This document shows positions 12,770 to 49,714 of a stretch of DNA of 64,000 bases, piece by piece. The stretch lies in assembly GCA_964016885.1 (NCBI GenBank), contig OZ024744.1, forward strand, positions 118,606,001 through 118,670,000, written 5' to 3'. A program made the position numbers and the translations under genes. A model generated the notes under the pieces. The model had not been told where the DNA came from. It saw only the letters and a program-made list of their open reading frames with translations, and did no database searches. Numbering within the stretch: the stretch's first letter is position 1; the number at the start of each line of letters is the position of its first letter. This DNA is from Eledone cirrhosa (Eukaryota).

Positions 12770-12980
12770 CTCGTATACGAGAGACGTGTGTTGACGTGTG
12801 TGAACAAGCTCGGCTACCGAGTCGGATTTACTTACTCAAAAAGTGAGTTTTGATTAATTTTTTTATACTGTAATATACGTTAACCCCTTGCCTTGGTCGT
12901 CAAACTTTGAGTTTATTTATTTTCGCCCCTTTTTGGGGCGAATTTTCCAGTTAAAAATTTATTACGGCAAACTAATAGAA

Positions 12981-14716
12981 ATGGACGGAATTTTCACATC
13001 TCATCCTAACGTGAAAGCCACGCCCCCTAAGAAAGGTGATACAGAGAAGCTAGAAGCACAAGGCTCTAAGTCTTCCCTCCTGACTTCTGCAAAAGAAACA
13101 TGGAACACGGAATTAAAAGAAAAATTTGTAAAAATGGGTGAAAACCCAGAAAGTCACATAAACGCAGACAAAAACAACAACGACAATAACAGCAATAGTC
13201 ACAACACCAACCAAGGAAAAAATAACGATAACACCAAACAAAGCGAACCCACTACTGGTGCCTCCTTTGCACAGGCGGTCCGGAAAACACAAACCTGCAA
13301 GCAACTGGACATTACAACTCTGAGAGAAAAGATGAAGGAAGCGAAACAGTATGTAACTTTCAAAGAAGGAGGAGACTTCACAATCACCTCCCCACAAGAA
13401 ATCAAAAGAGACACGACGCTAAGAACGATATCTTTCAGAACAATTTCCAACATAACAAGGAAACCAACTCAATTATCCCAAAAAGAGATTGAGCTGGTCC
13501 TAAAAAATGTGTGGAGTGATATATCGTTCATACAAAAAGGGCCACTCTATGGGAATATAACGGTCCTAATGAAGGATCAATTGACGGCCAGGAAATACTC
13601 TGTGGCACCAATTGTTTCCAAGCTACATACATTTTTCCCCACATATTTAGGGAAAAGAACGCAGAAGATAAGGGTCTCCGGAATCCGGCCAAATGCATGC
13701 ATTTCCTGGGTACTAACAGGATTTTTAGAAGACGAGGACGGAATCCTCTCAGTAGGAGAAGTCACCACAGACGTTTTCGGCGGTTTGAGCGTGGAGGTTC
13801 TGGTCCAAATGAGACCAGAACGAATAGCTAGAATACCACAGAGGGTGTCCCTCGATGGAGAAACATTTATATACATTTCAGCCGAGGGTAGGAGGCCCAT
13901 ATGTTACTACTGTTCAAGCAGGGGTCATCTAAGGGCTGCTTGTCCTCAATTGACAAAAAAAAGGCTCTTTTGCCTACACCCCACACACCACCACCGCCAC
14001 CACCACCACCACCTCCACCACCACCACCACAACAACAACAAAAACAACAGGGAAAAATAACACAGGACACGGCCCCACCCAAAACAACTCCCAAAACACA
14101 CACAAATACAACAAAACCCCAAAATACACCACTACCCGACAGCACGGACGAGGACCCAGCGGAAACGGCACCTAGTGACGAAGAGGGGGAACCCTTCCAA
14201 CCTGTAAAAAGGAAAAAAAGAAAGCACCACTCGAACATAAACGAAACAAACACACAACCACCAACAAAAACAAAACAAACAGAACAAACAAAATCCGCCC
14301 CACCCCAAAACATAACACATACAACAAAACGTAAGCACACACAAGAACAACAAACAAACACAACACAAATAAAACAGTATACATACATTAACACAAATAA
14401 CAAAGAACTAGTAAAAACAATACACAAAGACCCTTTGGTGGAAACTGAAGGGCAATTCTTTGCAAGCGCGGCCAACAAACCGCAATTAAAAATGATAAGA
14501 CTCCCAATGGACACCTATGCAAAACTAAGAGAGAACTTTCCTGAGGACGTGGGGAAAACATGTACTCGACCCTATAACCGCGTCCTCTTGAAACGTTTCC
14601 CCACCCACACCTCACCAAACACCCCCACTCCACCACAGAACAACACCCCACCAAACAACCCCTCCAATACGCCCATGGATATTGTGCAACCTGCTCCTCA
14701 GGAGCCGAACAGGTAG
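12981..14716 (+). pseudogene. LINE ORF1 (gag-like, CX2CX4HX4C knuckle), -1 frameshift in an A-run
   Basis: ATG 12981; CYYCSSRGHLRAAC; A8 at 13955-13962 versus A9 in copy 2 splits the ORF (real slippage or homopolymer sequencing error). Confidence 0.85.
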
Positions 14717-14737
14717 GTCCTTCCTCTTTTAACCAAC

Positions 14738-17700
14738 ATGGCTGATATAAGAGTTGGGTGTCTGAATGTACGTGGCCTGGGACTGTCTTGGAAACAAGGC
14801 AAACTTTTAAACGATCTCAGGTCGCATAGAATGGATGTAATGGCTATTTGCGAGTCCAGGATCAGCAGCGAGCACCAACTGGCGCCCCTCTTCGACGACT
14901 TTGAGATCTTCGCATCTCTCTGTCAACCGGGGGGTGGGGGTGGAGTTGTCGTTCTGCTGCGAAAACACCTGGGCCTCGCCATACAGAAGGTGCACCTGGA
15001 CCCGGAGGGTCGACTGGTGGTTTTAGACGTCGGCAGTAGTGAAAGTGGAGCCCTTAGACTAATAGCTGTGTACTCCCCTTTTTGGGCAGCGCGGCCGGAA
15101 TACTTCCAACGTCTGGAAACTTTTCTGGGAACGTCCCGCTCCTTGCTTTTAGTGGGGGACTGGAATGGTATCCTGGATGCACGTTGGGACTATGTAGGGG
15201 CATGTGCCAATAGAGGGGGGTGTAAAAGCCTCAAAAGGTTAATCGGCCGATTTGACCTGGCCGATAGATATCGACTAGATTTTCCGACTGTACCACTATG
15301 GACGTGGACCAATCGCAGTGGAACATCTAGGTCGTACCTAGATAGGGTCCTAGTTAGAGAGAACGATAGGGACACATTTAGCTGTCCAAAAATGTTCATG
15401 GTTGACTATTCGGATCACAAGTTAGTGACCTGCATAGCCAACCTTGATAGAACCCATAGACAGGGACCCGGTTACTGGAAGCTGAACTTGTCCTTACCGA
15501 GAAGCAAAGCTTACAGTAAACGGATTAGCACGTTAGTTAAGCAGAGTTTGACAGGGGCAATTGTCAACAACAGGTGGTGGAGCTCTCTTAAGAGAGCAAT
15601 TAGAATAGAATCGATAGGTTTTAGTCAGGAATTAGCAAGGGATAGGAACAAGACGGAAAGGGAATTAGTAGATAGAGTAGAAGAGGCGATTAGGAGTGGC
15701 AATGTAGCCGGCGTGCTGGCATCAAGAATGGCCTTAGACCAGTTCTTTGAGGTGAAGCATGAAGGCTGCGTTGTCAGGAGTAAAATACGTGCTCTGGGTA
15801 ATGAGGGAGCCAAAGCTGTGAGCTGGGCCCGAGTGACAGAGGCAAAAAGTGGGAACAAGTCCACGATTCGGTCTTTGAAGGACCAGGATGGGCGTGTGAT
15901 CCTTGAACCTGGGCAGATGTGTGCGGCCTTTCAGCGGCACTTTGCACGACTGTTCGAGAGGGGCGGCGCGCCGGGTGAGACTATGGATTTCAATCCATAC
16001 CTCGACGGTCTGCCGCGCCTCTCGGACGCGGAGGCGAAGTCCTGCGAAAGGACGATTTCAGCTGCTGAGATAGGGGCGGCGCTGAGCCAATGCGGCAAAC
16101 GCAAATCCCCGGGTCTCGATGGTCTACCATACGAGCTATATGTAGCGATGCCGGACTTGTTCTCCGATATCCTCGAAGCGGTCTACTGCAACTGGCAGCA
16201 GAACGGGAGAATTCCCAGTTCTGTGACCAAGGGCGTAGTTACGCTGGTGAGGAAGGATGAGAACAAGGGGGATGACATAAGTAACTTCAGGCCCATAACA
16301 CTGCTAAATACAGAGTTAAAGATTTTGGCCAAGGTGTTAGCGAAGAGGTTGGCGCTTGTCGTTGGAAACCTGGTGGGAGAAGCGCAGACATGCGCAATCC
16401 CGTCCAGGTCCATTCACGACAATCTCCACCTTATGCGATACATCATAGAGAGGGTAGGGAATGAACACGGCTTTGGTGGGGCCCTGATCAACTTGGATCA
16501 ATCTAAAGATTTCAATAGGGTTGACCATCGTTACCTGGATGCGGTGCTCGCGGCGGCAGGCTTCGGACCCGTTTTCAGGGGTTGGATTGCTGCGATGCAC
16601 AGCAGCAACGTCTGCTCAAGGGTCAAGGTGAACGGCCACCTCTCGGAGCCGTTCCAAATCATGCGATCCATCCGACAGGGATGCCCTCTCTCCTCCCTAC
16701 TGTATGTGCTGGCTCTTGAGCCACTACTGCGGAAGTTGGAGCGGTTGCAGGGCATCCCTTTGGAACCGGGATTGCAGAAAGCGGCGTCGGCCTACGCAGA
16801 TGACGTGACAGTAATGGTGTCGAAAACCTCGCAAATCGGTGAGATCGGCACCTTACTGGAGGAATATGAAAGGTTTACAGGAGCCAAGCTGAACCGGGAC
16901 AAGTCCGTCGGTTTGCAACTCGGAACATGGAGAGGCAAACCGATGCCCTCCAACGACGTCGTCGGACGCTGGACGGAGGGCCCGGTGAAGCTGCTTGGGG
17001 TCTGGTTCGGACCAGACCTCCAGGTGGAGAAAAACTGGAACGAGGTAACGGCCAGGGTGTTTGCACTCACCCAGAAGTGGGCCCAGTGCAAACTATCCCT
17101 GAAAGGTCGAGCGGAGGTGGCGAATATTTATATAGCATCCGTCATCTACTACCGCTTGACCGTCGTGCCTTGCCCAGTGAAAAGACTCGCCAAAATGGAG
17201 TGCGCGCTGTTCCAATTTCTTTGGAACAAGCGGACCCCTTTGGTGAGGAGATCCATCTGCTGTCAACACCCTTCGAAAGGAGGGCTGGGGATGCCGTGGC
17301 TACAGATGCGTAAACACGCATTAAGGCTACGGCACCTCCAGGTATTCCTCACCGGTCAACCGGTGTGGGCCCCGTTTGTGAGGCGAGCCTTTCCCAGACT
17401 CGTCTCGCTCACCGAGCTGCAATCCTGGGTCAAGCAAAGACCGAGAAAAGTGGGCGACTGGCACATTGAATGTGCCCAGGCGCTCACGGCCCTCTGGAAA
17501 GCGGACCCGGCAATCAGTGGAGACTCCACGTCGACATTCTATAGAGGGTTGGTACGCAGCAGGTGCGACGATGCTCTCGGAGAAGCTCTAGGCATGGAGG
17601 AAGATGAACTGGCCAGTCTGTTCGGTAGGACGTTTGGCCCTGGACCGATGGACAACTTCCAAAAGTCCCTGGCTTGGCAGTGCTACCGAGGGGCTCTACC

Positions 17701-18175
17701 CGTTCGAGACAAGCTCCACAGGCATGGGAGCCTGGGTAGAGATCCTTTGAATAAGATCTGTCCGAGATGCGTGCATGATGACGAAACCGTTGCGCACGCA
17801 TTCGTACACTGCCCAGGCATTGCTGACCTGTGGGGCTATGTGGAACGACTACTGTCGAGGGTGGGACCAATCCGGTTGACCACCGAGTCCATTGTCACGA
17901 TCAAACCGCCTCCCCCTTTCAAAAACGAAGGAGAGGCGGTTTTTCTCTGTGTGGTAGCCATGGCTAAAGAAGTTGTATGGTGGACGAGGCTGAAAGGGCT
18001 GAGGTCAGACACCTTTCTCTCCGGCCAACAACTGGTCCCCTTTTTCAAATACCATTTTAAAAGAAGGATCAGAATGGAGAGAGAGGTGCTCTACCCCAGC
18101 AAGTTTTATGAAAGGTGGGTGAAAGTAGGGAGAATGGCCAGAGTGAATGGGTCTTCTCTCTATATCAGCCTGTAG
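14738..18175 (+). CDS. LINE ORF2: APE endonuclease, reverse transcriptase, C-terminal CCHC (1145 aa)
   Basis: APE motifs LNVRGL, GDWN, YLDRV, YSDH; RT motifs SPGLDG, NFRPITLLN, RQGCPL, YADD; LSLKGR, GGLG and CPRC..ETVAHAFVHC typical of Tx1/L1. Confidence 0.95.
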   Translation: MADIRVGCLNVRGLGLSWKQGKLLNDLRSHRMDVMAICESRISSEHQLAPLFDDFEIFASLCQPGGGGGVVVLLRKHLGLAIQKVHLDPEGRLVVLDVGSSESGALRLIAVYSPFWAARPEYFQRLETFLGTSRSLLLVGDWNGILDARWDYVGACANRGGCKSLKRLIGRFDLADRYRLDFPTVPLWTWTNRSGTSRSYLDRVLVRENDRDTFSCPKMFMVDYSDHKLVTCIANLDRTHRQGPGYWKLNLSLPRSKAYSKRISTLVKQSLTGAIVNNRWWSSLKRAIRIESIGFSQELARDRNKTERELVDRVEEAIRSGNVAGVLASRMALDQFFEVKHEGCVVRSKIRALGNEGAKAVSWARVTEAKSGNKSTIRSLKDQDGRVILEPGQMCAAFQRHFARLFERGGAPGETMDFNPYLDGLPRLSDAEAKSCERTISAAEIGAALSQCGKRKSPGLDGLPYELYVAMPDLFSDILEAVYCNWQQNGRIPSSVTKGVVTLVRKDENKGDDISNFRPITLLNTELKILAKVLAKRLALVVGNLVGEAQTCAIPSRSIHDNLHLMRYIIERVGNEHGFGGALINLDQSKDFNRVDHRYLDAVLAAAGFGPVFRGWIAAMHSSNVCSRVKVNGHLSEPFQIMRSIRQGCPLSSLLYVLALEPLLRKLERLQGIPLEPGLQKAASAYADDVTVMVSKTSQIGEIGTLLEEYERFTGAKLNRDKSVGLQLGTWRGKPMPSNDVVGRWTEGPVKLLGVWFGPDLQVEKNWNEVTARVFALTQKWAQCKLSLKGRAEVANIYIASVIYYRLTVVPCPVKRLAKMECALFQFLWNKRTPLVRRSICCQHPSKGGLGMPWLQMRKHALRLRHLQVFLTGQPVWAPFVRRAFPRLVSLTELQSWVKQRPRKVGDWHIECAQALTALWKADPAISGDSTSTFYRGLVRSRCDDALGEALGMEEDELASLFGRTFGPGPMDNFQKSLAWQCYRGALPVRDKLHRHGSLGRDPLNKICPRCVHDDETVAHAFVHCPGIADLWGYVERLLSRVGPIRLTTESIVTIKPPPPFKNEGEAVFLCVVAMAKEVVWWTRLKGLRSDTFLSGQQLVPFFKYHFKRRIRMEREVLYPSKFYERWVKVGRMARVNGSSLYISL

Positions 18176-18412
18176 GTGAAAGAAGAGGAAAAAGAGGAGA
18201 CGAGGGAAGCACCTACTCTTTGTGCTCCTGAGGAGAAGGGTTACACATTTTTTCCGGGGTGTGTGCGACCCATGTTAATGCCCCCTCCCTATTGAGGACT
18301 TCGTTTGTTGTTGTTATTTCATTGTTATATTTTTGTACTCATTAATTATATGTAAACTTCCCCCCTTGTATCTGTCCCTACCTTTTGTGCCCTAGTGGCA
18401 AATAAAGAAACC

Positions 18413-19038
18413 ACTCTATATATACTATTGTATTTTCACAGTAAAGGCTTTACCTCACATAACATTTACATTACTCTATATATACTATTGTATTTTCACA
18501 GTAAAGGTTTTACCTCACATAATACCTCACATAACATTTACATTACTCTATATATACTATTGTGTTTTCACAGTAAAGTCTTTACCTGACATATTATTTC
18601 ACATAACATTTACATTACTCTATATATATACCATTGTGTTTTCACAGTAAAGTCTTTACCTCACATAATATCTCACATAACATTTACATTACTCTATATA
18701 TACTATTGTGTTTTCACAGTAAATGCTTTATCTCACATAGCATTTACAGTACTCTATATATATTATCACATCTTCACAGTTTAAGGCTTTAGCTCCCATA
18801 ATATCTCACTTAACATTTACATTACTCTATATATACTATTGTATTTTCACAATAAAGGCTTTACCTCACATAATATCTCACATAACATTTACATTACTCT
18901 ATATATACTATTGTATGTTCACAGTAAAGGCTTTACCTCACATAATATCTCACATAACATTTATGTTACTCTATGTATACTATTGTATTTTCACAGTAAA
19001 GCCTTTACATCACATAATATCTCACACAACATTTACAT
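18413..19038. repeat. 72-bp satellite, right of LINE copy 1
   Basis: Same unit resumes at ACTCTATATATACTATTG. Confidence 0.95.
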
Positions 19039-19040
19039 CA

Positions 19041-22000
19041 TTTTGTTGTGACATCTACATGACCACTTTACAGTGTGGACTGGCTACATTTTGTTGTGAG
19101 ACGAAGATGACAACTTTAGTTTTTATTTGGTACTTTTTATCGATGACCACTTTACAATGTGGACTGGGTACTTTTTGTTGTGACAGCTACATAACCACTT
19201 TAGTTTGTACTGGGTAACTTTGTTGTGACTCCTACATGACCACTTTGCAGTGTGTACACGTTACTTTTTGTTGTGACATCTACATGACCACTTTACAGTG
19301 TGGACTGGGTGTTTTTTGTCATGACACCTTCATGACCACTTTACAGTGTGTACTGGGTATATTTTGTTGTGACATCAACATGACCACTTTACAGTGTGTA
19401 CGGGGTACTTTTTGTTTTGACACATACATGAGCACTTTACAGTGTCTACTAGGTACTTGTTGTTGTTACACCTACATGACTACTTTACAGTGTGTACTGG
19501 GTACTTTTTGTTGTGACACCTACATGACGACTTTACAGGGTGTAGTGTGTACTTTTTGTTGTGACACCTACATGACCACTTTACAGTGTGGACTGGGTAC
19601 TTTTTGGTGTGACAGCTACATGACCACTTTACAGTGTACTGTGTACTTTTTGGTGTGACACCTACATGACCACTTTACAGTGTACTGTGTACTTTTTGTT
19701 GTGACATCTACATGACCACTTTACAGTTGTTGTGTACCTACGTAACCACTTTACAGTTGTTGTGTACCTACGTAACCACTCTACAGTGTGGACTGGTTAT
19801 CTTTTGTTGTGACACTTACATGACCACTTTACAGAGTGTACTGGGTACTTTTTGTTGTGACACCTACATGACCACTTTACAGTGTGTACTGGGTACTTTT
19901 TGTTGTGACACCTACATGACCACTTTACAGTGTGTACTGGGTACTTTTTGTTGTGACACCTACATGATCTCTTTACAGTGTGTACTGGGTACTTTTTGTT
20001 GTGACACCTACATAACCACTTTACAGTATGTACTGGGTAGTTTCTGTTGTGACACATACATAACCCCTTTACAGTGTGTACTGGGTACTTTTTGTTGTGA
20101 CACCTACATGACCACCTTACAGTATGTACTGTGTACTTTTTGTTGTGACATCTACATGACCACTTTACAAGGTGTACTGGGTAATTTTTGTTGAGACACC
20201 TACATGATCCCTTTACAGTGTATACTGGGTACTTTTTGTTGTGATACCTACATGACCACTTTACAGTGTGTACTGTGTACTTTTTGTTGTGACACCTACA
20301 TGACCACTTTACAGTGTGTACTGGGTACTTTTTGTTGTGACACCTACTTGACGACTTTACAGTGTGTACTGGGTACTTTTTATCGTGACACCTACATGAC
20401 CACATTACAGTTTGTACTGGGTACTTTTTGTTGTGACACCTACATGACCACTTTGCAGTGTGTACTGGGTACTTTTTGTTGTGACATCTACATGACCACC
20501 TTACAGTGTGGACTGGGTTCTTTTTGTTGTGACACCTACATGACCACTTTACAGTGTGTACTGGGTACTTTTTGTTGTGACATCTACATGACCACCTTAC
20601 AGTGTGGACTGGGTTCTTTTTGTTATAACACCAACATAACCACTTTACAGAGTATACTGGGTACTTTTTGTCATAACATCCACATGACCACCTTAGTGTA
20701 TGTACTGGGTACTTTTTGTTGTGACAGCTACATAACCACTTTACAGTGTGTACTGGGTACTTTTTGTTGTGACACCTACATGACCACCTTACAGTATGTA
20801 CTGTGTACTTTTTGTTGTGACACCTACATGACCAGTTTACAGTGTGTACTGGGTACTTTTTGTTGTGACATCTACATGACCACCTTACAGTGTGGACTGG
20901 GTTCTTTTTGTTATGACACCATGACCACTTTACAGTGTGTACTGGGTACTTTTTGTTGTGACATCTACATGACCACTTTACAGTGTGGACTGTGACCTTT
21001 TTGTCATGTCACCTACATGACCACTTGACAGTGTGTACTGGGTACTTTTTGTTGTGACACTTACATGACCACTGTACAATGTGTACTGGTTACTTTTTGT
21101 TGTGACACCTACATGACCACTTTACAGTGTGTACTGGGTACTTTTTGTTGTGACATCTACATGACCACGTTATAGTGTGGACTGGGTTCTTTTTGTTGTG
21201 ACACCGACATGACCACTTTACAGTGTGTACTGGGTACTTTTTGTTGTGACACCGACATGACCACTTTACAGTGTGTACTGGGTACATTTTGTTGTGACAC
21301 CGATATAACCACTTTACAGTGTGTACTGGGTACTTTTTGTCATAACATCCACATGACCACCTTACTGTATGTACTGGGTACTTTTTGTTGTGACATCTAC
21401 ATGACCACTTTACAGTGTGTACTGGGTTCTTTTTGTTGTGACACCTACATGACCATTTTACAGTGTGGACTGGGTACTTTTTGTTGTGACATCTACATGA
21501 CCACCTTACGGTGTGGACTGGGTTCTTTTTGTTATGACACCGACATGACCACTTTACAGTGTGTACTGGGTACTTTTTGTTGTGACATCTACATGACCAC
21601 TTTACAGTGTGGACTGTGACCTTTTTGTCATGTCACCTACATGACCACTTTACAGTGTGTACTGGGTTCTTTTTCTTGTGACACCTACATGACCACTTTA
21701 CAGTGTGTACTGGGTACTTTTTGTTGTGACATCTACATGACCACCTTACAGTGTGGACTGGGTTCTTTTTGTTATGTCACCGACATGACCACTTTACAGT
21801 GTGTACTGGGTACTTTTTGTTGTGACATCTACATGACCACTTTACAGTGTGGACTGTGACCTTTTTGTCATGTTACCTACATGACCACTTTACAGTGTGT
21901 ACTGGGTACTTTTTGTTGTGACAGTTACATGACCACTGTACAATGTGTACTGGTTACTTTTTGTTGTGACACCTACTTGACGACTTTACAGTGTGTACTG

Positions 22001-37492: not shown

Positions 37493-37587
37493 TTTTATTT
37501 CATTAATTTAATTAAAGGTTATATTTACTTCTGTATTTACTTATTTTCATATATAGTTTCCTTTTAATGATAGTCTTATATTATTAA

Positions 37588-38328: not shown

Positions 38329-41300
38329 GAGTTGATGGGTTAAAGTGTCTGACAGTTGACGGTTTATAATGTATTACAGTTGATGGTTTAAAGTGAATTA
38401 CAGTTGATGGTTTATAGCGTATTACAGTTGATGGTTTCTAGTGTAGTATAGTTGATGGTTTATAGTGTATTACAGTTGATGATTGAAACTATTACAATTG
38501 GTGGTTTAAAGTGTATTACAGTTGACGGTTTAAAGTGTATTGCAGTTGACGGTTTAAAGTGTATTGCAGTTGATGGTTTAATGTGTATTGCAGTTGATGG
38601 TTTAAAGTGTATTACAGTTGACGGTTTAAAGTGTATTGCAGTTGATGGTTTAATGTGTATTACAGTTGATGGTTTAAAGTGTATTACAATTGGTGGTTTA
38701 AAGTGTATTACAGTTGACGGTTTAAAGTGTATTGCAGTTGATGGTTTAATGTGTATTAAAGTTGATGGTTTAAAGTGTATTACAGTTGATGGTTTAAAGT
38801 GTATTACAATTGGTGGTTTAAAGTGTATTACAGTTGACGGTTTAAAGTGTATTGCAGTTGATGGTTTAATGTGTATTACAGTTGATGGTTTAAAGTGTAT
38901 TACAGTTGATGGTTTAAAGTGTATTACAGTTGATGGTTTAATGTGTATTACAGTTGGTGGTTTAAAGTGAATTACAGTTGATGGTTTAAAGTGTATTACA
39001 GTTGACGGTTTAAAGTGTATTGCAGTTGATGGTTTAATGTGTATTACAGTTGATGGTTTAAAGTGTATTACAGTTGACGGTTTAAAGTGTATTGCAGTTG
39101 ATGGTTTTATGTGTATTACAGTTGATGGTTTAAAGTGTATTACAGTTGATGGTTTAAAGTGTATTACAGTTGACGGTTTAAAGTGTATTGCAGTTGATGG
39201 TTTAATGTGTATTACAGTTGACAGTTTAAAGTGTATTACAGTTGATGGTTTAAAGTGTATTACAGTTGATGGTTTAAAGTGTATTACAGTTGATGGTTTA
39301 AAGTGTATTGCAGTTGATGGTTTATAGTGTATTACAGTTGATGGCTTAAAGTGTATTACAGTTGATGGTTTAATGTGTATTACAGTTGATTGTTTAAAGT
39401 GTATTACAGTTGATTGTTTAATGTGTATTACAGTTAATGGTTTCAAGTGAATTACAGTTGATGGTTTATAGTGTATTACAGTTGATGGTTTAATGTGTAT
39501 TACAGTTAATGGTTTAAAGTGAATTACAGTTGATGGTTTATAGTGTATTACAGTTGGTGGTTTATAGTGTATGACAGCGGATGGTTTATAGTGTATTACA
39601 GTTGATGGTTTAAAGTGTATTACAGTTGGTGGCTTAAAGTGTATTATAGTTGATGGGTTATAGTGTATTACAGTTGGTGGTTTAAAGTGTATTACAGTTG
39701 ATGGTTTAATGTGTATTACAGTTGGTGGTTTAAAGTGTATTACAGTTGGTGGTTTATAGTGTATTACAGTTGATGGTTTAAAGTGTATTACAGTTGACGG
39801 TTTAAAGTGTATTGCAGTTGATGGTTTAATGTGTATTACAGTTGATGGTTTAAAGTGTATTACAGTTGATGGTTTAAAGTGTATTACAGTTGACGGTTTA
39901 AAGTGTATTGCAGTTGATGGTTTAATGTGTATTACAGTTGACAGTTTAAAGTGTATTACAGTTGATGGTTTAAAGTGTATTACAGTTGATGGTTTAAAGT
40001 GTATTACAGTTGATGGTTTAAAGTGTATTGCAGTTGATGGTTTATAGTGTATTACAGTTGATGGCTTAAAGTGTATTACAGTTGATGGTTTAATGTGTAT
40101 TACAGTTGATTGTTTAAAGTGTATTACAGTTGATTGTTTAATGTGTATTACAGTTAATGGTTTCAAGTGAATTACAGTTGATGGTTTATAGTGTATTACA
40201 GTTGATGGTTTAATGTGTATTACAGTTAATGGTTTAAAGTGAATTACAGTTGATGGTTTATAGTGTATTACAGTTGGTGGTTTATAGTGTATGACAGCGG
40301 ATGGTTTATAGTGTATTACAGTTGATGGTTTAAAGTGTATTACAGTTGGTGGCTTAAAGTGTATTATAGTTGATGGGTTATAGTGTATTACAGTTGGTGG
40401 TTTAAAGTGTATTACAGTTGATGGTTTAATGTGTATTACAGTTGGTGGTTTAAAGTGTATTACAGTTGGTGGTTTATAGTGTATTACAGTTGATGGTTTA
40501 AAGTGTATTACAGTTGGTGGTTTAAAGTGTATTACAGTTGATGGTTTAATGTGTATTACAGTTGATGGTTTAATGTGTATTACAGTTGGTGGTTTAAAGT
40601 ATATTACAGTTGGTGGTTTAAAGTGTATTACAGTTGATGGTTTAAAGTGTATTACAGTTGGTGGTTTATAGTGTATTACAGTTGATGGTTTAAAGTATAT
40701 TACAGTTGGTGGTTTATAGTGTATTACAGTTGATGGTTTAAAGTGTATTACAGTTGGTGGTTTATAGTGTATTACAGTTGATGGTTTAAAGTGTATTACA
40801 GTTGGTGGTTTAAAGTGTATTACAGTTGATGGTTTAATGTGTATTACAGTTGATGGTTTAATGTGTATTACAGTTGGTGGTTTAAAGTATATTACAGTTG
40901 GTGGTTTAAAGTGTATTACAGTTGATGGTTTAAAGTGTATTACAGTTGATGGTTTAAAGTGTATTACAGTTGGTGGTTTAAAGTGTATTACAGTTGGTGG
41001 TTTAAAGTGTATTACAGTTGGTGGTTTATAGTGTATTACAGTTGATGGTTTAAAGTGTATTACAGTTGGTGGTTTAAAGTGTATTACAGTTGATGGTTTA
41101 AAGTGTATTACAGTTGATGGTTTAAAGTGTATTACAGTTGATGGTTTAAAGTGTATTACAGTTGGTGGTTTAATGTGTATTACAGTTGATGGTTTAAAGT
41201 GTATTACAGTTGGTGGTTTAAAGTGTATTACAGTTGGTGGTTTAAAGTGTATTACAGTTGATGGTTTAATGTGTATTACAGTTGGTGGTTTAAAGTGTAT

Positions 41301-43990
41301 TACAGTTGGTGGTTTAAAGTGTATTACAGTTGATGGTTTAAAGTGTATTACAGTTGATGGTTTAATGTGTATTACAGTTGATGGTTTAATGTGTATTACA
41401 GTTGGTGGTTTAAAGTGTATTACAGTTGGTGGTTTAAAGTGTATTACAGTTGATGGTTTAATGTGTATTACAGTTGATGGTTTAATGTGTATTACAGTTG
41501 GTGGTTTAAAGTGTATTACAGTTGATGGTTTAATGTGTATTACAGATGATGGTTTAATGTGTAGTAGAGTTGGTGGTTTAAAGTGTATTACAGTTGGTGG
41601 TTTATAGTGTATTACAGTTGATGGTTTAAAGTGTATTACAGTTGGTGGTTTAAAGTATATTACAGTTGGTGGTTTAAAGTGTATTACAGTTGATGGTTTA
41701 AAGTGTATTACAGTTGGTGGTTTAAAGTGTATTACAGTTGGTGGTTTAAAGTGTATTACAGTTGATGGTTTAATGTGTATTACAGTTGATGGTTTAATGT
41801 GTATTACAGTTGGTGGTTTAAAGTGAATTACAGTTGGTGGTTTGTAGTGTATTACAGTTGATGGTTTAAAGTGTATTACAGTTGGTGGTTTAAAGTATAT
41901 TACAGTTGGTGGTTTAAACTGTATTACAGTTGATGGTTTAAAGTGTATTACAGTTGGTGGTTTAACGTGTATTACAGTTGGTGGTTTAATGTGTATTACA
42001 GTTGATGGTTTAAAGTGAATTACAGTTGGTGGTTTATAGTGTATTACAGTTGGTGGTTTAAAGTGAATTACAGTTGGTGGTTTGTAGTGTATTACAGTTG
42101 ATGGTTTAAAGTGTATTACAGTTGGTGGTTTAAAGTATATTACAGTTGGTGGTTTAAACTGTATTACAGTTGATGGTTTAAAGTGTATTACAGTTGGTGG
42201 TTTAACGTGTATTACAGTTGGTGGTTTAATGTGTATTACAGTTGATGGTTTAAAGTGAATTACAGTTGGTGGTTTATAGTGTATTACAGTTGATGGTTTA
42301 AAGTGTTTTACAGTTGATGGTTTAAAGTGTATTTCAGTTGATGGTTTATAGTGTATGACAGCGGATGGTTTATAGTGTATTACAGTTGGTGGTTTAAAGT
42401 GTATTACAGTTGGTGGTTTAAAGTATATTACAGTTGGTTTAAAGTGAATTACTGTTGATGGTTTAAAGTGTATTTCAGTTGATGGTTTATAGTGTATGAC
42501 AGCGGATGGTTTATAGTGTATTACAGTTGGTGGTTTAAAGTGTATTACAGCGGATGGTTTATAGTGTATTACAGTTGATGATATATAGTGTATTACAGTT
42601 GATTGTTAAAGTGTGTTACAGTTGATGGTTTGTAGTGAATTACATTTGATGGTTTAAAGTGTATTATATTTGATGGTTTAAAGTGTATTACAGTTAACGG
42701 TTTAATGTGTATTACAGTTGATTTTTTTCTAGTGTATTACAGTTAATGGTTTAAATTGTCTGCCAGTTGATGGTTTATAGTGTATTGCAGTTGATGGTTT
42801 AAAGTGTATTGCAGTTGATGGTTTAAAGTGTATTACAGTTGGTGGTTCATAGTGTATTACAGTTTATGGTTTAAAGTGTATTTCGGTTGATGGTTTAAGG
42901 TGGACTACAGTTGATGGTTTATAGTGTTTTACACTTGTTAGTTTAAAGTGTATTACAGTTGATGGTTTAAAGTGTATTAAAGTTGATGGTTTAAAATGTA
43001 TTACAGCTGATAGTTTAAATTGTATTACAGTTGATGGTTTAAAGTGTATTGCAGTTGGTTTAAAGTGTATTACAATTTATGGTGTAAAGTGTATTACAGT
43101 TGATGGTTTAAATTGTATTACAGTTGATGGTTTATAGTGTATTACATTTGATGGTTTAAAGTGTATTATATTTGATGGTTTAAAGTGTATTACAGTTGAT
43201 GATTTATTGTGTATTACAGTTGATTGTTTATAGTGTATTACATTTGATGGTTTAAAGTGTATTATATTTGATGGTTTAAAGTGTATTACAGTTGATGATT
43301 TATTGTGTATTACAGTTGATGGTTTATAGTGTATTACATTTGATGGTTTAAAATGTATTATATTTGATGGTTTAAAGTGTATTACAGTTGATGATTTATT
43401 GTGTATTACAGTTGATGGTTTATAGTGTATTACATTTGATGGTTTAAAGTGTATTATATTTGATGGTTTAAAGTGTATTACAGTTGATGATTTATTGTGT
43501 ATTACACTTGATGGTTTATAGTGTATTACATTTGATGGTTTAAAATGTATTATATTTGATGGTTTAAAGTGTATTACAGTTGATGATTTATTGTGTATTA
43601 CAGTTGATGGTTTATAGTGTATTACATTTGATGGTTTAAAGTGTATTACAGTTGATGGTTTATAGTGAATTACAGTTGATGGTTTAAAGTGTAATACAGT
43701 TAATGGTTTATTGTGTATTACAGTTGATTATTTCTAGTGTATTACAGTTAATGGTTTAAATTGCTGCCAGTTGATGGTTTATAGTGTATTGCAGTTGATG
43801 GTTTAAAGTGTATTACAGTTGGTGGTTTAAAGTGTATTACAGTTGGTGGTTCATAGTGCATTACAGTTGATGGTTTAAAGTGTATTACAGTTGATCGTTT
43901 AAGTGTATTACAGTTGATGGTTTATAGTGTATTACAGTTGATGGTTTAAAGTGTATTACAGTTGATGGTTTAAAGTGTATTACAGTTGAT
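38329..43990. repeat. 24-bp minisatellite, ~5.7 kb (~235 copies)
   Basis: Unit GTGTATTACAGTTGATGGTTTAAA; 720-bp (39121 vs 39841) and 240-bp (41821 vs 42061) internal duplications. Confidence 0.98.
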
Positions 43991-44081
43991 GCTTTATCTC
44001 ACATAACATTTACATTACTCTATATATACTATCGTATTTTCACAGTAAAGGCTTTACCTCACATAATATCTCACATAACAT
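43991..44081. repeat. Short stub of 72-bp satellite, left of LINE copy 2
   Basis: ~1.3 units between the 24-bp array and the LINE. Confidence 0.92.
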
Positions 44082-44291
44082 CTCGTATACGAGTGACGTG
44101 TGTTGACGTGTGTGAACAAGCTCGGCTACCGAGTCGGATTTACTTACTCAAAAAGTGAGTTTTGATTAATTTTTTATACTGTAATATACGTTAACCCCTT
44201 GCCTTGGTCGTCAAACTTTGAGTTTATTTATATTCGCCCCTTTTTGGGACGAATTTTCCAGTTAAAAATTTATTACGGCAAACTAATAGAA

Positions 44292-46019
44292 ATGGACGGA
44301 ATTTTCACATCTCATCCTAACGTGAAAGCCACGCCCCCTAAGAAAGGTGATACAGAGAAGCTAGAAGCACAAGGCTCTAAGTCTTCCCTCCTCACTTCTG
44401 CAAAAGAAACATGGAACACGGAATTAAAAGAAAAATTTGTACAAATGGGTGAAAACCCAGAAAGTCACATAAACGCAGACAAAAACAACAACGACAATAA
44501 CAGCAATAGTCACAACACCAACCAAGGAATAAATAACGATAACACCAAACAAAGCGAACCCACTACTGGTGCCTCCTTTGCACAGGCGGTCCGGAAAACA
44601 CAAACCTGCAAGCAACTGGACATTACAACTCTGAGAGAAAAGGTGAAGGAAGCGAAACAGTATGTAACTTTCAAAGAAGGAGGAGACTTCACAATCACCT
44701 CCCCACAAGAAATCAAAAGAGACACGACGCTAAGAACGATATCCTTCAGAACAATTTCCAACATAACAAGGAAACCAACTCAATTATCCCAAAAAGAGAT
44801 TGAGCTGGTCCTAAAAAATGTGTGGAGTGATATATCGTTCATACAAAAAGGGCCACTCTATGGGAATATAACGGTCCTAATGAAGGATCAATTGACGGCC
44901 AGGAAATACTCTGTGGCGCCAATTGTTTCCAAGCTACATACATTTTTCCCCACATATTTAGGGAAAAAAACGCAGAAGATAAGGGTCTCCGGAATCCGGC
45001 CAAATGCATGCATTTTCTGGGTACTAACAGGATTTTTAGAAGACGAGGACGGAATCCTCTCAGTAGGAGAAGTCACCACAGACGTTTTCGGCGGTTTGAG
45101 CGTGGAGGTTCTGGTCCAAATGAGACCAGAACGAATAGCTAGAATACCACAGAGGGTGTCCCTCGATGGAGAAACATTTATATATATTTCAGCCGAGGGT
45201 AGGAGGCCCATATGTTACTACTGTTCAAGCAGGGGTCATCTAAGGGCTGCTTGTCCTCAATTGACAAAAAAAAAGGCTCTTTTGCCTACACCCCACACAC
45301 CACCACCGCCACCACCACCACCACCACCACAACAACAACAACAAAAACAACACGGAAAAATAACACAAGACACGGCCCCACCCAAAACAACTCCCAAAAC
45401 ACACACAAATACAACAAAACCCCAAAATACACCACTACCCGACAGCACGGACGAGGACCCAGCTGAAACGGCACCTAGTGACGAAGAGGGGGAACCCTTC
45501 CAACCTGTAAAAAGGAAAAAAAGAAAGCACCACTCGAACATAAACGAAACAAACACACAACCACCAACAAAAACAAAACAAACAGAACAAACAAAATCCA
45601 CCCCACCCCAAAACATAACACATACAACAAAACGCAAGCACACACAAGAACAACAAACAAACACAACACAAATAAAACAGTATACATACATTAACACAAA
45701 TAACAAAGAACTAGTAAAAACAATACACAAAGACCCTTTGGTGGAAACTGAAGGGCAATTCTTTGCAAGCGCGGCCAACAAACCACATTTAAAAATGATA
45801 AGACTCCCAATGGACACCTATGCAAAACTAAGAGAGAACTTTCCTGAGGACGTGGGGAAAACATGTACTCGACCCTATAACCGCGTCCTCTTGAAACGTT
45901 TCCCCACCCACACCTCACCAAACACCCCCACTCCACCACAGAACAACACCCCACCAAACAACCCCTCCAATACGCCCATGGATATTGTGCAACCTGCTCC
46001 TCAGGAGCCGAACAAGTAG
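44292..46019 (+). CDS. LINE ORF1, gag-like with CCHC zinc knuckle and Pro/Thr/Gln-rich C-terminus
   Basis: First ATG at 44292 within ORF 44199-46019; CYYCSSRGHLRAAC; basic KRKKRK stretch. Confidence 0.88.
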   Translation: MDGIFTSHPNVKATPPKKGDTEKLEAQGSKSSLLTSAKETWNTELKEKFVQMGENPESHINADKNNNDNNSNSHNTNQGINNDNTKQSEPTTGASFAQAVRKTQTCKQLDITTLREKVKEAKQYVTFKEGGDFTITSPQEIKRDTTLRTISFRTISNITRKPTQLSQKEIELVLKNVWSDISFIQKGPLYGNITVLMKDQLTARKYSVAPIVSKLHTFFPTYLGKKTQKIRVSGIRPNACIFWVLTGFLEDEDGILSVGEVTTDVFGGLSVEVLVQMRPERIARIPQRVSLDGETFIYISAEGRRPICYYCSSRGHLRAACPQLTKKKALLPTPHTPPPPPPPPPPQQQQQKQHGKITQDTAPPKTTPKTHTNTTKPQNTPLPDSTDEDPAETAPSDEEGEPFQPVKRKKRKHHSNINETNTQPPTKTKQTEQTKSTPPQNITHTTKRKHTQEQQTNTTQIKQYTYINTNNKELVKTIHKDPLVETEGQFFASAANKPHLKMIRLPMDTYAKLRENFPEDVGKTCTRPYNRVLLKRFPTHTSPNTPTPPQNNTPPNNPSNTPMDIVQPAPQEPNK

Positions 46020-46040
46020 GTCCTTCCTCTTTTAACCAAC

Positions 46041-49000
46041 ATGGCTGATATAAGAGTTGGGTGTCTGAATGTACGCGGCCTGGGACTGTCTTGGAAACAA
46101 GGCAAACTTTTAAACGATCTCAGGTCGCATAGAATGGATGTAATGGCTATTTGCGAGTCCAGAATCAGCAGCGAGCACCAACTGGCGCCCCTCTTCGACG
46201 ACTTTGAGATCTTCGCATCTCTCTGTCAACTGGGGGGTGGGGGTGGAGTTGTCGTTCTGCTGCGAAAACACCTGGGCCTCGCCATACAGAAGGTGCACCT
46301 GGACCCGGAGGGTCGACTGGTGGTTTTAGACGTCGGCAGTAGTGAAAGTGGAGCCCTTAGACTAATAGCTGTGTACGCCCCTTTTTGGACAGCGCGGCCG
46401 GAATACTTCCAACGTCTGGAAACTTTTCTGGGAACGTCCCGCTCCTTGCTTTTAGTGGGGGACTGGAATGGTATCCTGGATGCACGTTGGGACTATGTAG
46501 GGGCATGTGCCAATAGAGGGGGTTGTAAAAGCCTCAAAAGGTTAATCGGCCGATTTGACCTGGCCGATAGATATCGACTAGATTTTCCGACTGTACCACT
46601 ATGGACGTGGACCAATCGCAGCAGAACATCTAGGTCGTACCTAGATAGGGTCCTAGTTAGAGATAAGGATAGGGACACATTTTGCTGTCCAAAAATGTTC
46701 ATGGTTGACTATTCGGATCACAAGTTAGTGACCTGCATAGTCAACCTTGATAGAACCCATAGACAGGGACCCGGTTACTTGAAGCTGAACTTGTCCTTAT
46801 CGACAAGCAAAGCTTACAGTAAACGGATTAGCACGTTAGTTAAGCAGTGTTTGACAGGGGCAATTGTCAACAACAGGTGGTGGAGCTCTCTTAAGAGAGC
46901 AATTAGAATAGAATCGATTGGTTTTAGTCAGGAATTAGCAAGGGATAAGAACAAGACGGAAAGGGAATTAGTAGATAGAGTAGAAGAGGCGATTAGGAGT
47001 GGCAATGTAGCCAGCGTGCTGGCATCAAGAATGGCCTTAGACCAGTTCTTTGATGTGAAGCACGAGGACTGCGTTGTCAGGAGTAAAATACGTGCTCTGG
47101 GTAATGAGGGAGCCAAAGCTGTTAGCTGGGCCCGAGTGACAGAGGCAAAAAGTGGGAACAAGTCCACGATTCGGTCTTTGAAGGACAAGGATGGGCGTGT
47201 GATCCTTGAACCTGGGAAGATGTGTGCGGCCTTTCAGCGGCACTTTGCACGACTGTTCGAGAGGGGCGGCGCGCCGGGTGAGACTATGGATTTCAATCCA
47301 TACCTCGACGGTCTGCCGCGCCTCTCGGACGCGGAGGCGAAGTCCTGCGAAAGGACGATTTCAGCTGCTGAGATAGGGGCGGCGCTGAGCCAATGCGGCA
47401 AACGCAAATCCCCGGGTCTCGATGGTCTACCATACGAGCTATATGTAGCGATGCCGGACTTGTTCTCCGATATCCTCGAAGCGGTCTACTACAACTGGCA
47501 GCAGAACGGGAGAATTCCCAGTTCTGTAACCAAGGGCGTAGTTACGCTGGTGAGGAAGGATGAGAACAAGGGGGATGACATAAGTAACTTCAGGCCCATA
47601 ACTCTGCTAAATACAGAGTTAAAGATTTTGGCCAAGGTGTTAGCGAAGAGGTTGGCACTTGTCGTCGGAAACCTGGTGGGAGAAGCGCAGACATGCGCAA
47701 TCCCGTCCAGGTCCATTCACGACAATCTCCACCTTATGCGATATATCATAGAGAGGGTAGGGAATGAACCCGGCTTTGGTGGGGCCCTGATCAACTTGGA
47801 TCAATCTAAAGACTTCAATAGGGTTGACCATCTTGACCTGGATGCGGTGCTCGCGGCGGCAGGCTTCGGACCCGTTTTCAGGGGTTGGATTGCTGCGATG
47901 CACAGCAGCAACGTCTGCTCAAGGGTCAAGGTGAACGGCCACCTCTCGGAGCCGTTCCAAATCATGCGATCCATCCGACAGGGATGCCCTCTCCCCTCCC
48001 TACTGTATGTGCTGGCTCTTGAGCCACTACTGCGGAAGTTGGAGCGGTTGCAGGGCATCCCTTTGGAACCGGGATTGCAGAAAGCGGCGTCGGCCTACGC
48101 CGATGACGTGACAGTAATGGTGTCGAAAACCTCGCAAATCGGTGAGATCGGCACCTTACTGGAGGAATATGAAAGGTTTACAGGAGACAAGCTGAACCGG
48201 GACAAGTCTGTCGGTTTGCAACTCGGAACATGGAGAGGCAAACCGATGCCCTCCAACGACGTCGTCGGACGCTGGACGGAGGGCCCGGTGAAGCTGCTTG
48301 GGGTCTGGTTCGGACCAGACCTCCAGGTGGAGAAAATCTGGAACGAGGTAACGGCCAGGGTGTTTGCACTCACCCAGAAGTGGGCCCAGTGCAAACTATC
48401 CCTGAAAGGTCGAGCGGAGGTGGCGAATATTTATATAGCATCCGTCATCTACTACCGCTTGACCGTCGTGCCTTGCCCAGTGAAAAGACTCGCCAAAATG
48501 GAGTGCGCGCTGTTCCAATTTCTTTGGAACAAGCGGACCCCTTTGGTAAGGAGATCCATCTGCTGTCAACACCATTCGAAAGGAGGGCTGGGGATGCCGT
48601 GGCTACAGATGCGTAAACACGCATTAAGGCTACGGCACCTCCAGGTATTCCTCACCGGTCAACCGGTGTGGGCCCCGTTTGTGAGGCGAGCCTTTCCCAG
48701 ACTCGTCTCGCTCACCGAGCTGCAATCCTGGGTCAAGCAAAGACCGAGAAAAGTGGGCGACTGGCACATTGAATGTGCCCAGGCGCTCACGGCCCTCTGG
48801 AAAACGGACCCGGCAATCAGTGGAGACTCCACCTCGACATTCTATAGAGGGTTGGTACGCAGCAGGTGCGACGATGCTCTCGGAGAAGCTCTAGGCATGG
48901 AGGAAGATGAACTGGCCAGTTTGTTCGGTAGGACGTTTGGCCCTGGACCGATGGACAACTTCCAAAAGTCCCTGGCTTGGCAGTGCTACCGAGGGGCTCT

Positions 49001-49478
49001 ACCCGTTCGAGACATGCTCCACAGGCATGGGAGCCTGGGTAGGGATCCTTTGAATAAGATCTGTCCGAGATGCGTGCATGACGTCGAAACCGTTGCGCAC
49101 GCATTCGTACACTGCCCAGGCATTGCTGACCTGTGGGGCTATGTGGAACGACTACTGTCGAGGGTGGGACCAATCCGGTTGACCACCGAGTCCATTGTCA
49201 CGATCAAACCGCCTCCCCCTTTCAAAAACGAAGGAGAGGCGGTTTTTCTCTGTGTGATAGCCATGGCTAAAGAAGTTGTATGGTGGACGAGGCTGAAAGG
49301 GCTGAGGTCAGACACCTTTCTCTCCGGCCAACAACTGGTGCCCTTTTTCAAATACCATTTTAAAAGAAGGATCAGAATGGAGAGAGAGGTGCTCTACCCC
49401 AGCAAGTTTTATGAAAGGTGGGTGAAAGTAGGGAGAATGGCCAGAGTGAATGTGTCTTCTCTCTATATCAGCCTGTAG
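46041..49478 (+). CDS. LINE ORF2: APE endonuclease, reverse transcriptase, CCHC (1145 aa)
   Basis: Same motifs as copy 1; about 30 amino-acid differences by manual comparison. Confidence 0.95.
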   Translation: MADIRVGCLNVRGLGLSWKQGKLLNDLRSHRMDVMAICESRISSEHQLAPLFDDFEIFASLCQLGGGGGVVVLLRKHLGLAIQKVHLDPEGRLVVLDVGSSESGALRLIAVYAPFWTARPEYFQRLETFLGTSRSLLLVGDWNGILDARWDYVGACANRGGCKSLKRLIGRFDLADRYRLDFPTVPLWTWTNRSRTSRSYLDRVLVRDKDRDTFCCPKMFMVDYSDHKLVTCIVNLDRTHRQGPGYLKLNLSLSTSKAYSKRISTLVKQCLTGAIVNNRWWSSLKRAIRIESIGFSQELARDKNKTERELVDRVEEAIRSGNVASVLASRMALDQFFDVKHEDCVVRSKIRALGNEGAKAVSWARVTEAKSGNKSTIRSLKDKDGRVILEPGKMCAAFQRHFARLFERGGAPGETMDFNPYLDGLPRLSDAEAKSCERTISAAEIGAALSQCGKRKSPGLDGLPYELYVAMPDLFSDILEAVYYNWQQNGRIPSSVTKGVVTLVRKDENKGDDISNFRPITLLNTELKILAKVLAKRLALVVGNLVGEAQTCAIPSRSIHDNLHLMRYIIERVGNEPGFGGALINLDQSKDFNRVDHLDLDAVLAAAGFGPVFRGWIAAMHSSNVCSRVKVNGHLSEPFQIMRSIRQGCPLPSLLYVLALEPLLRKLERLQGIPLEPGLQKAASAYADDVTVMVSKTSQIGEIGTLLEEYERFTGDKLNRDKSVGLQLGTWRGKPMPSNDVVGRWTEGPVKLLGVWFGPDLQVEKIWNEVTARVFALTQKWAQCKLSLKGRAEVANIYIASVIYYRLTVVPCPVKRLAKMECALFQFLWNKRTPLVRRSICCQHHSKGGLGMPWLQMRKHALRLRHLQVFLTGQPVWAPFVRRAFPRLVSLTELQSWVKQRPRKVGDWHIECAQALTALWKTDPAISGDSTSTFYRGLVRSRCDDALGEALGMEEDELASLFGRTFGPGPMDNFQKSLAWQCYRGALPVRDMLHRHGSLGRDPLNKICPRCVHDVETVAHAFVHCPGIADLWGYVERLLSRVGPIRLTTESIVTIKPPPPFKNEGEAVFLCVIAMAKEVVWWTRLKGLRSDTFLSGQQLVPFFKYHFKRRIRMEREVLYPSKFYERWVKVGRMARVNVSSLYISL

Positions 49479-49714
49479 GTGAAAGAAGAGGAAAATGAGG
49501 AGACGAGGGAAGCACCTTCTCTTTGTGCTCCTGAGGAGAAGGGTTACACATTTTTTCCCGGGTGTGTGCGACCCATGTTAATGCCCCCTCCCTATTGAGG
49601 ACTTCGTTTGTTGTTGTTATTTCATTGTTATATTTTTGTACTCGTTAATTATATGTAAACTCCCCCCTTGTATCTGTCCCTACCTTTTGTGCCCTGGTGG
49701 CAAATAAAGAAATC

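What the first reader, a model, noticed from the sequence alone, without database searches (positions are those of the whole stretch)
12770..49714. Two full-length Tx1-group LINEs at the identical position of a 72-bp satellite: candidate satellite-targeting retrotransposon
Seen: both copies, 31 kb apart and in the same orientation, start after ...TCTCACATAACAT (12769, 44081) and end before ACT(C/T)TATATATAC (18413, 49715). About 7 nt of the unit (TTACATT) is missing and there is no TSD. The flanking monomers differ between the two sites (60-bp vs 72-bp unit on the right). Known: the Tx1 clade contains sequence-specific families (Keno/U2, Mutsu/5S, Dewa/tRNA spacer, Kibi and Koshi/microsatellites). 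Inference: this could be a family specific for a species-level satellite, which I do not know to have been described. The equally serious alternative is one insertion followed by duplication of a satellite-LINE block (see next finding).
Basis: partly seen in the sequence, partly recalled or inferred. Interest (0 to 1): 0.75.

Follow-up and report, generated by a model that had tools for sequence, protein, structure and literature searches.

The report
LINE targets repeats inside piggyBac MITE
Both copies belong to a young jumping-gene family whose roughly 340 copies sit almost all at one exact base of a 72-letter repeat inside a small piggyBac-type DNA transposon, and its RNA likely carries about 29 letters of that landing site to seal each insertion, a new example of a habit already known from frogs.

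Summary
Observation confirmed; interpretation partly revised. The two LINEs (98.6% identical) belong to a family of about 340 copies: 339 of 343 exact 3' ends and 275 of 281 exact 5' ends sit at the same phase of the 72-bp unit. The 'satellite' is the tandemly expanded interior of a ~228-bp TTAA-flanked non-autonomous piggyBac (at least 7,918 copies). Insertions are independent: LINEs 98.5% alike lie in MITE bodies 83% alike, and three 5'-truncated copies use the same 3' phase with 2-9 nt overlaps. The RNA likely carries target sequence at both ends: an inherited TT/TC/CC dinucleotide at the 3' side, and about 29 nt overwriting local variants at the 5' side, as in R2Bm. 72 of 77 copies keep their 5' end, against 3 of 37 in a sister family that targets (TATC)n. 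Closest known case: Xenopus Tx1L in Tx1D; satellite-targeting Tx1 families are already listed in print. Tx1 membership itself was not tested by phylogeny. The window pair shares three rare variants, so some local exchange is possible. This scan found the same family before on other DNA of this genome.

The parts
10482..12769 (+). Left array: about 32 units of the 72-bp (some 60-bp) repeat, the expanded interior of a non-autonomous piggyBac MITE; only a worn remnant of the left terminal repeat (TAGCATTTACATT) at its start
12741..12769 (+). Last ~29 nt of the unit before copy 1; inferred to be carried at the front of the element RNA and to overwrite the local target; predicted to pair with the element's first 45 nt
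   Evidence: inference from other copies
12770..18410 (+). LINE copy 1 (young CC subfamily, 7 private substitutions), 5641 bp, ends AATAAAGAAA
12981..14716 (+). ORF1 of copy 1, frameshifted near 13954
14738..18175 (+). ORF2 of copy 1, 1145 aa: APE endonuclease, RT, C-terminal zinc finger; RT motif reads KDFN where 58 of 63 other copies read KAFD
18411..18412 (+). CC in place of target TT; inherited with the subfamily, so likely copied from RNA that runs into the target
18413..19038 (+). Right array of copy 1, about 8 units, cut off by a 48-bp satellite
43991..44081 (+). About 1.3 units before copy 2, preceded by a 24-bp satellite
44082..49712 (+). LINE copy 2 (older, TC type, 46 private substitutions)
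44292..46019 (+). ORF1 of copy 2, 575 aa, weak zinc-knuckle match (E 0.0068, below Pfam's cut-off)
46041..49478 (+). ORF2 of copy 2, 1145 aa, same KDFN change as copy 1
49713..49714 (+). TC in place of target TT
49715..50325 (+). Right array of copy 2, about 8.7 units, cut off by a broken Gypsy-like LTR element
55983..57349 (-). 5'-truncated copy of the sister family (76% DNA identity) that elsewhere targets (TATC)n; here in a TATC-like spot of the 73-bp satellite

Best explanation
The two elements are copies of a young LINE family of about 340 members that sits at one base of the tandemly expanded 72-bp interior unit of a non-autonomous piggyBac MITE, and that likely inserts there by target-primed reverse transcription from an RNA carrying a copy of the target at both ends. 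Steps: (shown) fixed target phase, host is a TTAA/CCC piggyBac derivative, copies entered old hosts one by one. (Inferred) The APE endonuclease nicks the bottom strand within the first ~9 nt of ACTCTATAT; the RNA runs a few bases into the downstream target and primes there, which is why TT/TC/CC is inherited. (Inferred) The RNA begins about 29 nt or more upstream of CTCG, inside the previous unit; full-length cDNA anneals to or invades the upstream unit and overwrites it, giving an invariant 5' junction with a net 5-nt loss and no true TSD. This needs an upstream unit, so arrays rather than single-unit MITEs are filled. Truncated cDNA joins at a top-strand break 2-9 nt downstream and seldom succeeds. 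(Inferred) The family descends from relatives that target (TATC)n, with which it shares a TCTAT core.
For: 339 of 343 3' ends and 275 of 281 5' ends at target phase; 3 of the 4 misses were examined and are sister-type elements, 77-91% identical. MITE termini and body match autonomous piggyBacs of the same genome (21 of 22 nt at the left end; 68-69% over MITE 82-228). In 35 loci with a complete host body, LINEs are 98.5% and bodies 83.3% alike, against 86.1% among 15 empty MITEs; Mantel rho -0.03, p 0.61. Truncated copies L147, L195, L177 (about 950, 50 and 41 nt) share the 3' phase and show 9, 6 and 2 nt overlaps; L177 sits in a single-unit MITE beside the terminal repeat and still carries CC. 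TT/TC/CC clusters on the tree: 9 changes vs 24 shuffled, 0 of 200. The unit 5' of the LINE keeps 17 of 35 local variants at positions 10-36 but 0 of 15 at 37-65; the control unit keeps 18 of 33 and 7 of 12 (p 0.0009). The last 29 nt are exact in 87 of 101 adjacent units vs 339 of 852 others. No full-length copy directly follows the terminal repeat (0 of 72; 0 pattern matches genome-wide). 72 of 77 copies keep the 5' end vs 3 of 37 in the sister family. R2Bm keeps 27 nt of upstream target on its RNA, with strand invasion proposed (PMC6895275 passages).
Against: No RNA, nick or transcript end was observed; every RNA step is inferred from DNA junctions. Only three clean truncated junctions. The variant test rests on 15 sites, some in duplicated loci (L045/L046, L050/L051). 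Target selection could give part of the same pattern. The two window copies share three rare variants (16509, 16514, 17127; 0 of 65, 1 of 65, 1 of 69 other copies) that independent insertion alone does not explain. Tandem LINE-plus-spacer duplications exist elsewhere (L064/L065 share an identical spacer), so not every copy is a separate insertion. A 94% full-length share is also what DNA-level copying would give. The tree has weak support (2 of 60 branches starred).
Confidence: 0.8

Rival explanations
1. One or a few insertions were spread at the DNA level (block duplication, unequal exchange or ectopic gene conversion between arrays); the window pair is one insertion duplicated.
For: Three rare variants shared by the pair, two of them in an RT motif; other neighbouring pairs (L151/L152, L179/L180) top the list of shared rare variants; head-to-tail runs with identical spacers on C1 and C10; almost all copies are full length.
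Against: The pair differs at 26 subfamily sites and has 46 vs 7 private changes; 36 of 63 copies elsewhere are closer to copy 1 than copy 2 is. Donor-type sequence is one-sided, long at 5' and under ~10 nt at 3', which fits target-primed reverse transcription and not two-sided conversion tracts. Truncated copies with short overlaps exist.
Confidence: 0.07
2. The LINE rides inside the MITE and the composite is moved by piggyBac transposase.
For: Intact 561-aa piggyBac transposase frames with matching termini are present; many hosts keep their termini (left in 35, right in 37 of 72).
Against: 45 pairs of LINEs at least 99.3% alike sit in MITE bodies only 84% alike (77-96%), with no correlation.
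Confidence: 0.02
3. Targeting is real, but the conserved upstream 29 nt reflect target choice (the protein needs a consensus upstream unit), not sequence carried on the RNA.
For: The LINE follows arrays rather than single-unit MITEs: arrays in 7 of 17 distal vs 1 of 41 interior MITEs on C1, and LINE copies on C1 lie at 0.5-31 and 431-434 Mb.
Against: L177 was nicked with no upstream unit at all. In L149 and L150 arrays of 60-bp units have a 72-bp unit just before the LINE. L129 has a consensus 5' unit with no terminal repeat and a diverged 3' unit; L130 shows 5' flanking sequence carried along.
Confidence: 0.08
4. The arrays are a product of the LINE: its enzyme, copying read-through or array RNA at a MITE's first unit, creates the first duplication, so the element manufactures its own target.
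For: All arrays share one junction (34,895 exact matches) although host bodies are 83-86% alike. Two-unit L304 and three-unit L102 duplicate local variants yet carry the common junction; L169 has one unit on each side sharing four local variants.
Against: Only 1 of 72 full-length copies is a clean one-plus-one case, though single-unit MITEs are 50 of 58 sampled. L099 and L167 have first and last units that differ, which fits import by recombination. Most arrays hold no LINE. MITE-internal arrays arise without LINEs in other animals (PMC12628747 passages).
Confidence: 0.15

Closest known systems
Tx1L of Xenopus laevis in Tx1D (PMC4494074 passages; PMC1950540 passages; PMC6719617 passage)
   Same: APE-type LINE inserted at a specific site of a non-autonomous piggyBac family. 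That the Tx1D site lies in internal tandem repeats is recalled, not read here.
   Different: Different host and target. Here full-length copies show no TSD but a homology-type 5' junction (Tx1L's 23-bp TSD is recalled; the primary paper was not held). Closest sister here targets a microsatellite, so the habit likely arose independently.
Crocodilian Tx1-Mar, Tx1-9_AMi and the satellite-targeting Tx1 families of Kojima 2015 (PMC4494074 section 15)
   Same: Tx1 families aimed at abundant DNA transposons or satellites; independence shown there by truncated copies, as here.
   Different: Those are described as preferences in old hosts; this family is near-absolute (339 of 343) and young. Names of the satellite-targeting families were not visible (figure and supplements not held).
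R2Bm 5' joining (PMC6895275 passages)
   Same: RNA retains upstream target (27 nt there, about 29 nt inferred here), proposed to join by strand invasion.
   Different: R2 has a restriction-like endonuclease, one ORF and an HDV-like ribozyme; this element is APE-type with two ORFs and no Rfam ribozyme match.
Kibi, Koshi and crocodilian microsatellite-targeting Tx1 (PMC4494074)
   Same: The sister family in this genome targets a microsatellite, (TATC)n.
   Different: Different repeat unit; relationship not tested by phylogeny.
MITE-internal tandem arrays such as miDNA4 and Xstir of Xenopus (PMC12628747 passages)
   Same: A MITE unit found as a single monomer or as arrays of variable length.
   Different: Here the host is piggyBac-derived and the array is the target of a LINE.

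Membership tests
L1-group LINE (APE type) | ORF2 with APE endonuclease, RT and C-terminal zinc finger | tested here: met
   PF03372, PF00078, PF13966; best solved match human L1 ORF2p, E 2e-51, vs R2 1e-22 or weaker
Tx1 clade | RT phylogeny groups it with Tx1L, Keno, Kibi, Koshi, Mutsu, Dewa | not testable with these tools
   No named Tx1 sequence was returned: of 80 homologues one carried a name (a plant protein); members of 15 clusters gave no Tx1 name; Atlas clusters unnamed
Tx1 clade | ORF1 with a CCHC zinc knuckle (feature recalled) | tested here: inconclusive
   One knuckle at aa 307-323, E 0.0068, 16.9 bits, under the cut-off of 20.8
Sequence-specific non-LTR retrotransposon | Fixed 3' insertion point across copies | tested here: met
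   339 of 343
Sequence-specific non-LTR retrotransposon | Independent insertions (truncated copies at the same site; hosts older than the element) | tested here: met
   L147, L195, L177; LINE 98.5% vs host 83.3%
Sequence-specific non-LTR retrotransposon | Endonuclease nicks the target in vitro | not testable with these tools
   needs protein
Non-autonomous piggyBac (host) | TTAA on both sides and CCC...GGG terminal inverted repeats | tested here: met
   Left ends TTAACCCTTTAGCATT, right ends AATGCTAAAGGGTTAA, unrelated flanks
Non-autonomous piggyBac (host) | Termini shared with an autonomous piggyBac | tested here: met
   PF13843 elements of about 2.6 kb with the same termini and homologous subterminal sequence
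Non-autonomous piggyBac (host) | Terminal repeats and body present around the window's own arrays | tested here: not met
   Only a worn left-end remnant at 10482; no match to MITE positions beyond 95 in the window. The window's arrays are assigned by unit identity.
Tx1C-like composite moved as one transposon | LINE and host identities correlate | tested here: not met
   Mantel rho -0.03, p 0.61, 35 loci
R2-like 5' joining | Upstream target overwritten by element-type sequence | tested here: met
   0 of 15 vs 7 of 12 local variants kept at unit positions 37-65
R2-like 5' joining | Self-cleaving ribozyme that sets the RNA 5' end | tested here: inconclusive
   No Rfam match near a gathering score in 12650-13050; an unknown fold is not excluded

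The most novel reading that the evidence does not exclude
A LINE that builds its own niche: after switching from TATC microsatellites to a piggyBac MITE, it folds a carried 29-nt piece of the target into a hairpin with its own 5' end, integrates almost only at full length, and its enzyme seeds the genome-wide 72-bp arrays from single-unit MITEs, so that a satellite family of some 35,000 units is the product of the retrotransposon that inhabits it.
Probability: 0.15. Interest if true: 0.75.

Novelty: new member of a known kind. Interest (0 to 1): 0.4.

Why it matters
It is a clean natural pair for studying how LINE target choice changes: two families with ORF2 78% identical, one aimed at (TATC)n and mostly truncated, the other at a piggyBac-derived repeat and 94% full length. 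The endonuclease hairpin loop studied in L1 and Tx1L is nearly unchanged between them, while a loop near residues 112-118 differs, which names the parts to swap. If the carried 29 nt explain the full-length rate, an APE-type LINE has reached the R2 solution for precise 5' joining, which matters for RNA-templated gene insertion. As a kind of system it is known from Xenopus and crocodilians.

Tried and rejected
Expression: no RNA holder listed; contigs of two runs laid on the element gave nothing on transcript ends. Naming relatives for a Tx1 phylogeny failed. Rfam scan of the 5' end gave two chance-level matches (E 1.6 and 2.5). The idea that the window's truncated sister copy marks a second satellite-specific family was rejected: 26 of 29 other copies run into TATC-type sequence and 3 into TCAATA (read by eye). 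The idea that the whole 65-nt unit is a long TSD was rejected: 5' and 3' adjacent units differ in most one-unit cases, L169 being the exception. The idea that internal deletions replace 5' truncations is open: 17 of 72 copies have deletions of 60 nt or more, mostly in older copies, which fits later decay equally well. A genome-wide count of two-unit MITEs was not obtained; a sample of 58 left ends and 12 array regions, all on C1, stands in for it. The primary Tx1L paper was not held and the supplements of PMC4494074 could not be read; they may name a similar satellite- or piggyBac-targeting family. Literature searches for Tx1 with octopus (6 listed) and Tx1 with cephalopod and piggyBac (2 listed) showed no description of this family in listings; only PMC13282606 was opened (passages: counts of L1-Tx1 families, no targets in the passages shown). 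Repbase and Dfam were not available.
Full report
Observation. The copies are 98.6% identical, each with an open 1145-aa ORF2 carrying APE, RT and zinc-finger domains; ORF1 is whole only in copy 2. The element proper ends at AATAAAGAAA (18410, 49712). The window is G000:C28:118606001-118670000 in a 3.0-Gb genome. That this is an octopod is my inference from recalled repeat content and from earlier notes of this scan, not a tool result.

Family-wide targeting. An exact 29-nt 3' motif occurs 343 times, 339 of them followed by YYACT. Three of the four misses were fetched and are sister-type elements, 77-91% identical, ending in TATC-like sequence; the fourth was not seen. An exact 27-nt 5' motif occurs 281 times, 275 of them preceded by CATAACAT. 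These counts are lower bounds, since exact motifs miss older copies.

The target is a piggyBac MITE interior. Following arrays to their ends gave TTAACCCTTTAGCATT on the left and a shared ~130-nt body ending AATGCTAAAGGGTTAA on the right. The left end occurs 7,918 times exactly. Of 58 sampled on C1, 50 hold a single unit in a ~228-bp element and 8 hold arrays; arrays are distal (7 of 17 vs 1 of 41, p 0.0004), as are the LINEs. The array junction occurs 34,895 times. Autonomous piggyBacs of about 2.6 kb with 561-aa frames share the termini and subterminal sequence. Against this: the window's own arrays keep only a worn left-end remnant and no body; other satellites and a broken Gypsy-like element cut them off.

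Independent insertion. I fetched both ends of 77 on-target copies from the first 100 listed, skipping most tandem neighbours. In the 35 with a complete host body, LINE 3' ends are 98.5% alike and bodies 83.3%, close to 15 empty MITEs (86.1%), with no correlation; this rejects hitchhiking on piggyBac. Three truncated copies (L147, L195, L177) share the 3' phase and show 9, 6 and 2 nt of target on both sides. Two others are unclear (L172 joins the full-length junction to position 3867; L176 is rearranged). For the window pair, copy 1 has 7 private changes and copy 2 has 46, and they differ at 26 subfamily sites; 36 of 63 copies elsewhere are closer to copy 1 than copy 2 is. They do share three rare variants, two of which change the RT motif KAFD (58 of 63 other copies) to KDFN; 10 of 2,556 other pairs share three or more, neighbours among them. 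Short gene conversion or a polishing artefact is the likely cause; it is unexplained. Tandem duplication of LINE plus spacer does occur at other loci.

Mechanism. At the 3' side the two bases before ACTCT are CC in 42, TC in 20 and TT in 15 of 77 copies and cluster on a weakly supported tree of 65 rows (9 changes vs 24 shuffled), so they likely come from RNA that runs into the target; local variants appear from unit position 9-11 on (L129, L169, L177), which bounds the nick. At the 5' side the adjacent unit keeps local variants on its left (17 of 35, control 18 of 33) and none at positions 37-65 (0 of 15, control 7 of 12; p 0.0009); it is of the short 60-bp type in 2 of 72 cases against 120 of 810 non-adjacent units. 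No full-length copy follows the terminal repeat directly, though L177 shows that the first unit can be nicked. I infer that the RNA carries at least 29 nt of upstream unit and that the cDNA joins by homology, as proposed for R2Bm's 27 nt (PMC6895275, passages). 72 of 77 copies keep the 5' end, and 20 of 20 more do (these were 20 of the 29 loci L002-L030, chosen by 3' identity; L007, seen to be rearranged, was among the 9 left out). The carried piece is predicted to pair with the element's first 45 nt (z -2.75 with it, -1.21 without; 3 of 371 sliding windows and 17 of 1,000 shuffles gain as much). This is post hoc, and one of two sister 5' ends gains -6.0 of the -9.0 kcal, so it is a lead only. 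No Rfam ribozyme matched.

Sister family. The truncated element at 55983-57349 (76% DNA identity) belongs to a family that ends in TATC-type sequence in 26 of 29 other copies (by eye) and is full length in 3 of 37 (4 if L267, whose 5' end was not checked, counts). ORF2 is 78% identical: endonuclease 72.8%, RT 85.3%. The hairpin loop that aligns with L1's (PMC1950540 passages) differs at one position, while the loop after VYAP differs with a two-residue gap. Both targets contain TCTAT. The direction of the switch is inferred, not rooted.

Comparison and novelty. Tx1L inserts into Tx1D, a non-autonomous piggyBac family; crocodilian Tx1 families prefer Mariner and Harbinger elements; and satellites are listed among Tx1 targets (PMC4494074: passages and section 15; PMC6719617 passage; PMC4640811 passages). 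MITE-internal arrays are reviewed in PMC12628747 (passages). So the element works like Tx1L, with an R2-like 5' junction. Membership of the Tx1 clade was not tested, as no named sequence was returned. Two searches showed no description of this family in their listings; Repbase, Dfam and the supplements of PMC4494074 were not seen. Earlier agents of this scan reached the same reading on other DNA of this genome; one disagreed, and contradict it if it concerns this family. Verdict: real, site-specific, a new member of a known kind; the seeding of arrays by the LINE remains possible but unproven (for: L304, L102, L169; against: L099, L167, and only 1 of 72 one-plus-one cases).

Noticed in passing
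window 16509, 16514, 17127 and the matching sites in copy 2: Three rare variants shared by both window copies; two change a conserved RT motif (KAFD to KDFN), so both open ORF2s may be inactive.
   Followed up: partly
window 12741-12815: Two CACAU repeats of the carried target piece are predicted to pair with two GUGUG repeats in the element's first 45 nt.
   Followed up: partly
window 50326-52620, minus strand: Broken Gypsy-like LTR retrotransposon (gag, protease and RT pieces with stops and frameshifts) cuts the last array.
   Followed up: no
window 1-2585, 4109-7430, 19041-34782, 38330-43996, 52653-62202: Five other tandem arrays (64, CAC-rich, 48, 24 and 73/76 bp units); whether they too derive from transposon interiors was not tested.
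   Followed up: no
window 3942-4091: Short coding-like stretch before the CAC array that recalls a MORN-repeat protein exon (recalled; no Pfam match).
   Followed up: partly
L129 (C1:10.98 Mb) and L130 (C1:11.03 Mb): A piece of an LTR element plus one unit precedes the LINE at both loci; in L130 it sits behind a 170-nt LINE 5' fragment, which looks like 5' transduction with a template switch.
   Followed up: partly
G000 C1:4.22-4.26 Mb and C10:40.72-40.75 Mb: Head-to-tail runs of five or six LINE copies separated by one to a few units; some spacers are identical.
   Followed up: partly
L206, L228, L230, L278, L279: Sister-family copies followed by TCAATA in AT-rich sequence rather than (TATC)n: possibly a third target preference.
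   Followed up: no
L304 second array (C1:0.80 Mb region): A MITE of the same family expanded into a 16-bp repeat made of the target site itself (23 units).
   Followed up: no
L232-L260: Several near-identical autonomous piggyBacs of about 2.6 kb with open 561-aa frames.
   Followed up: partly
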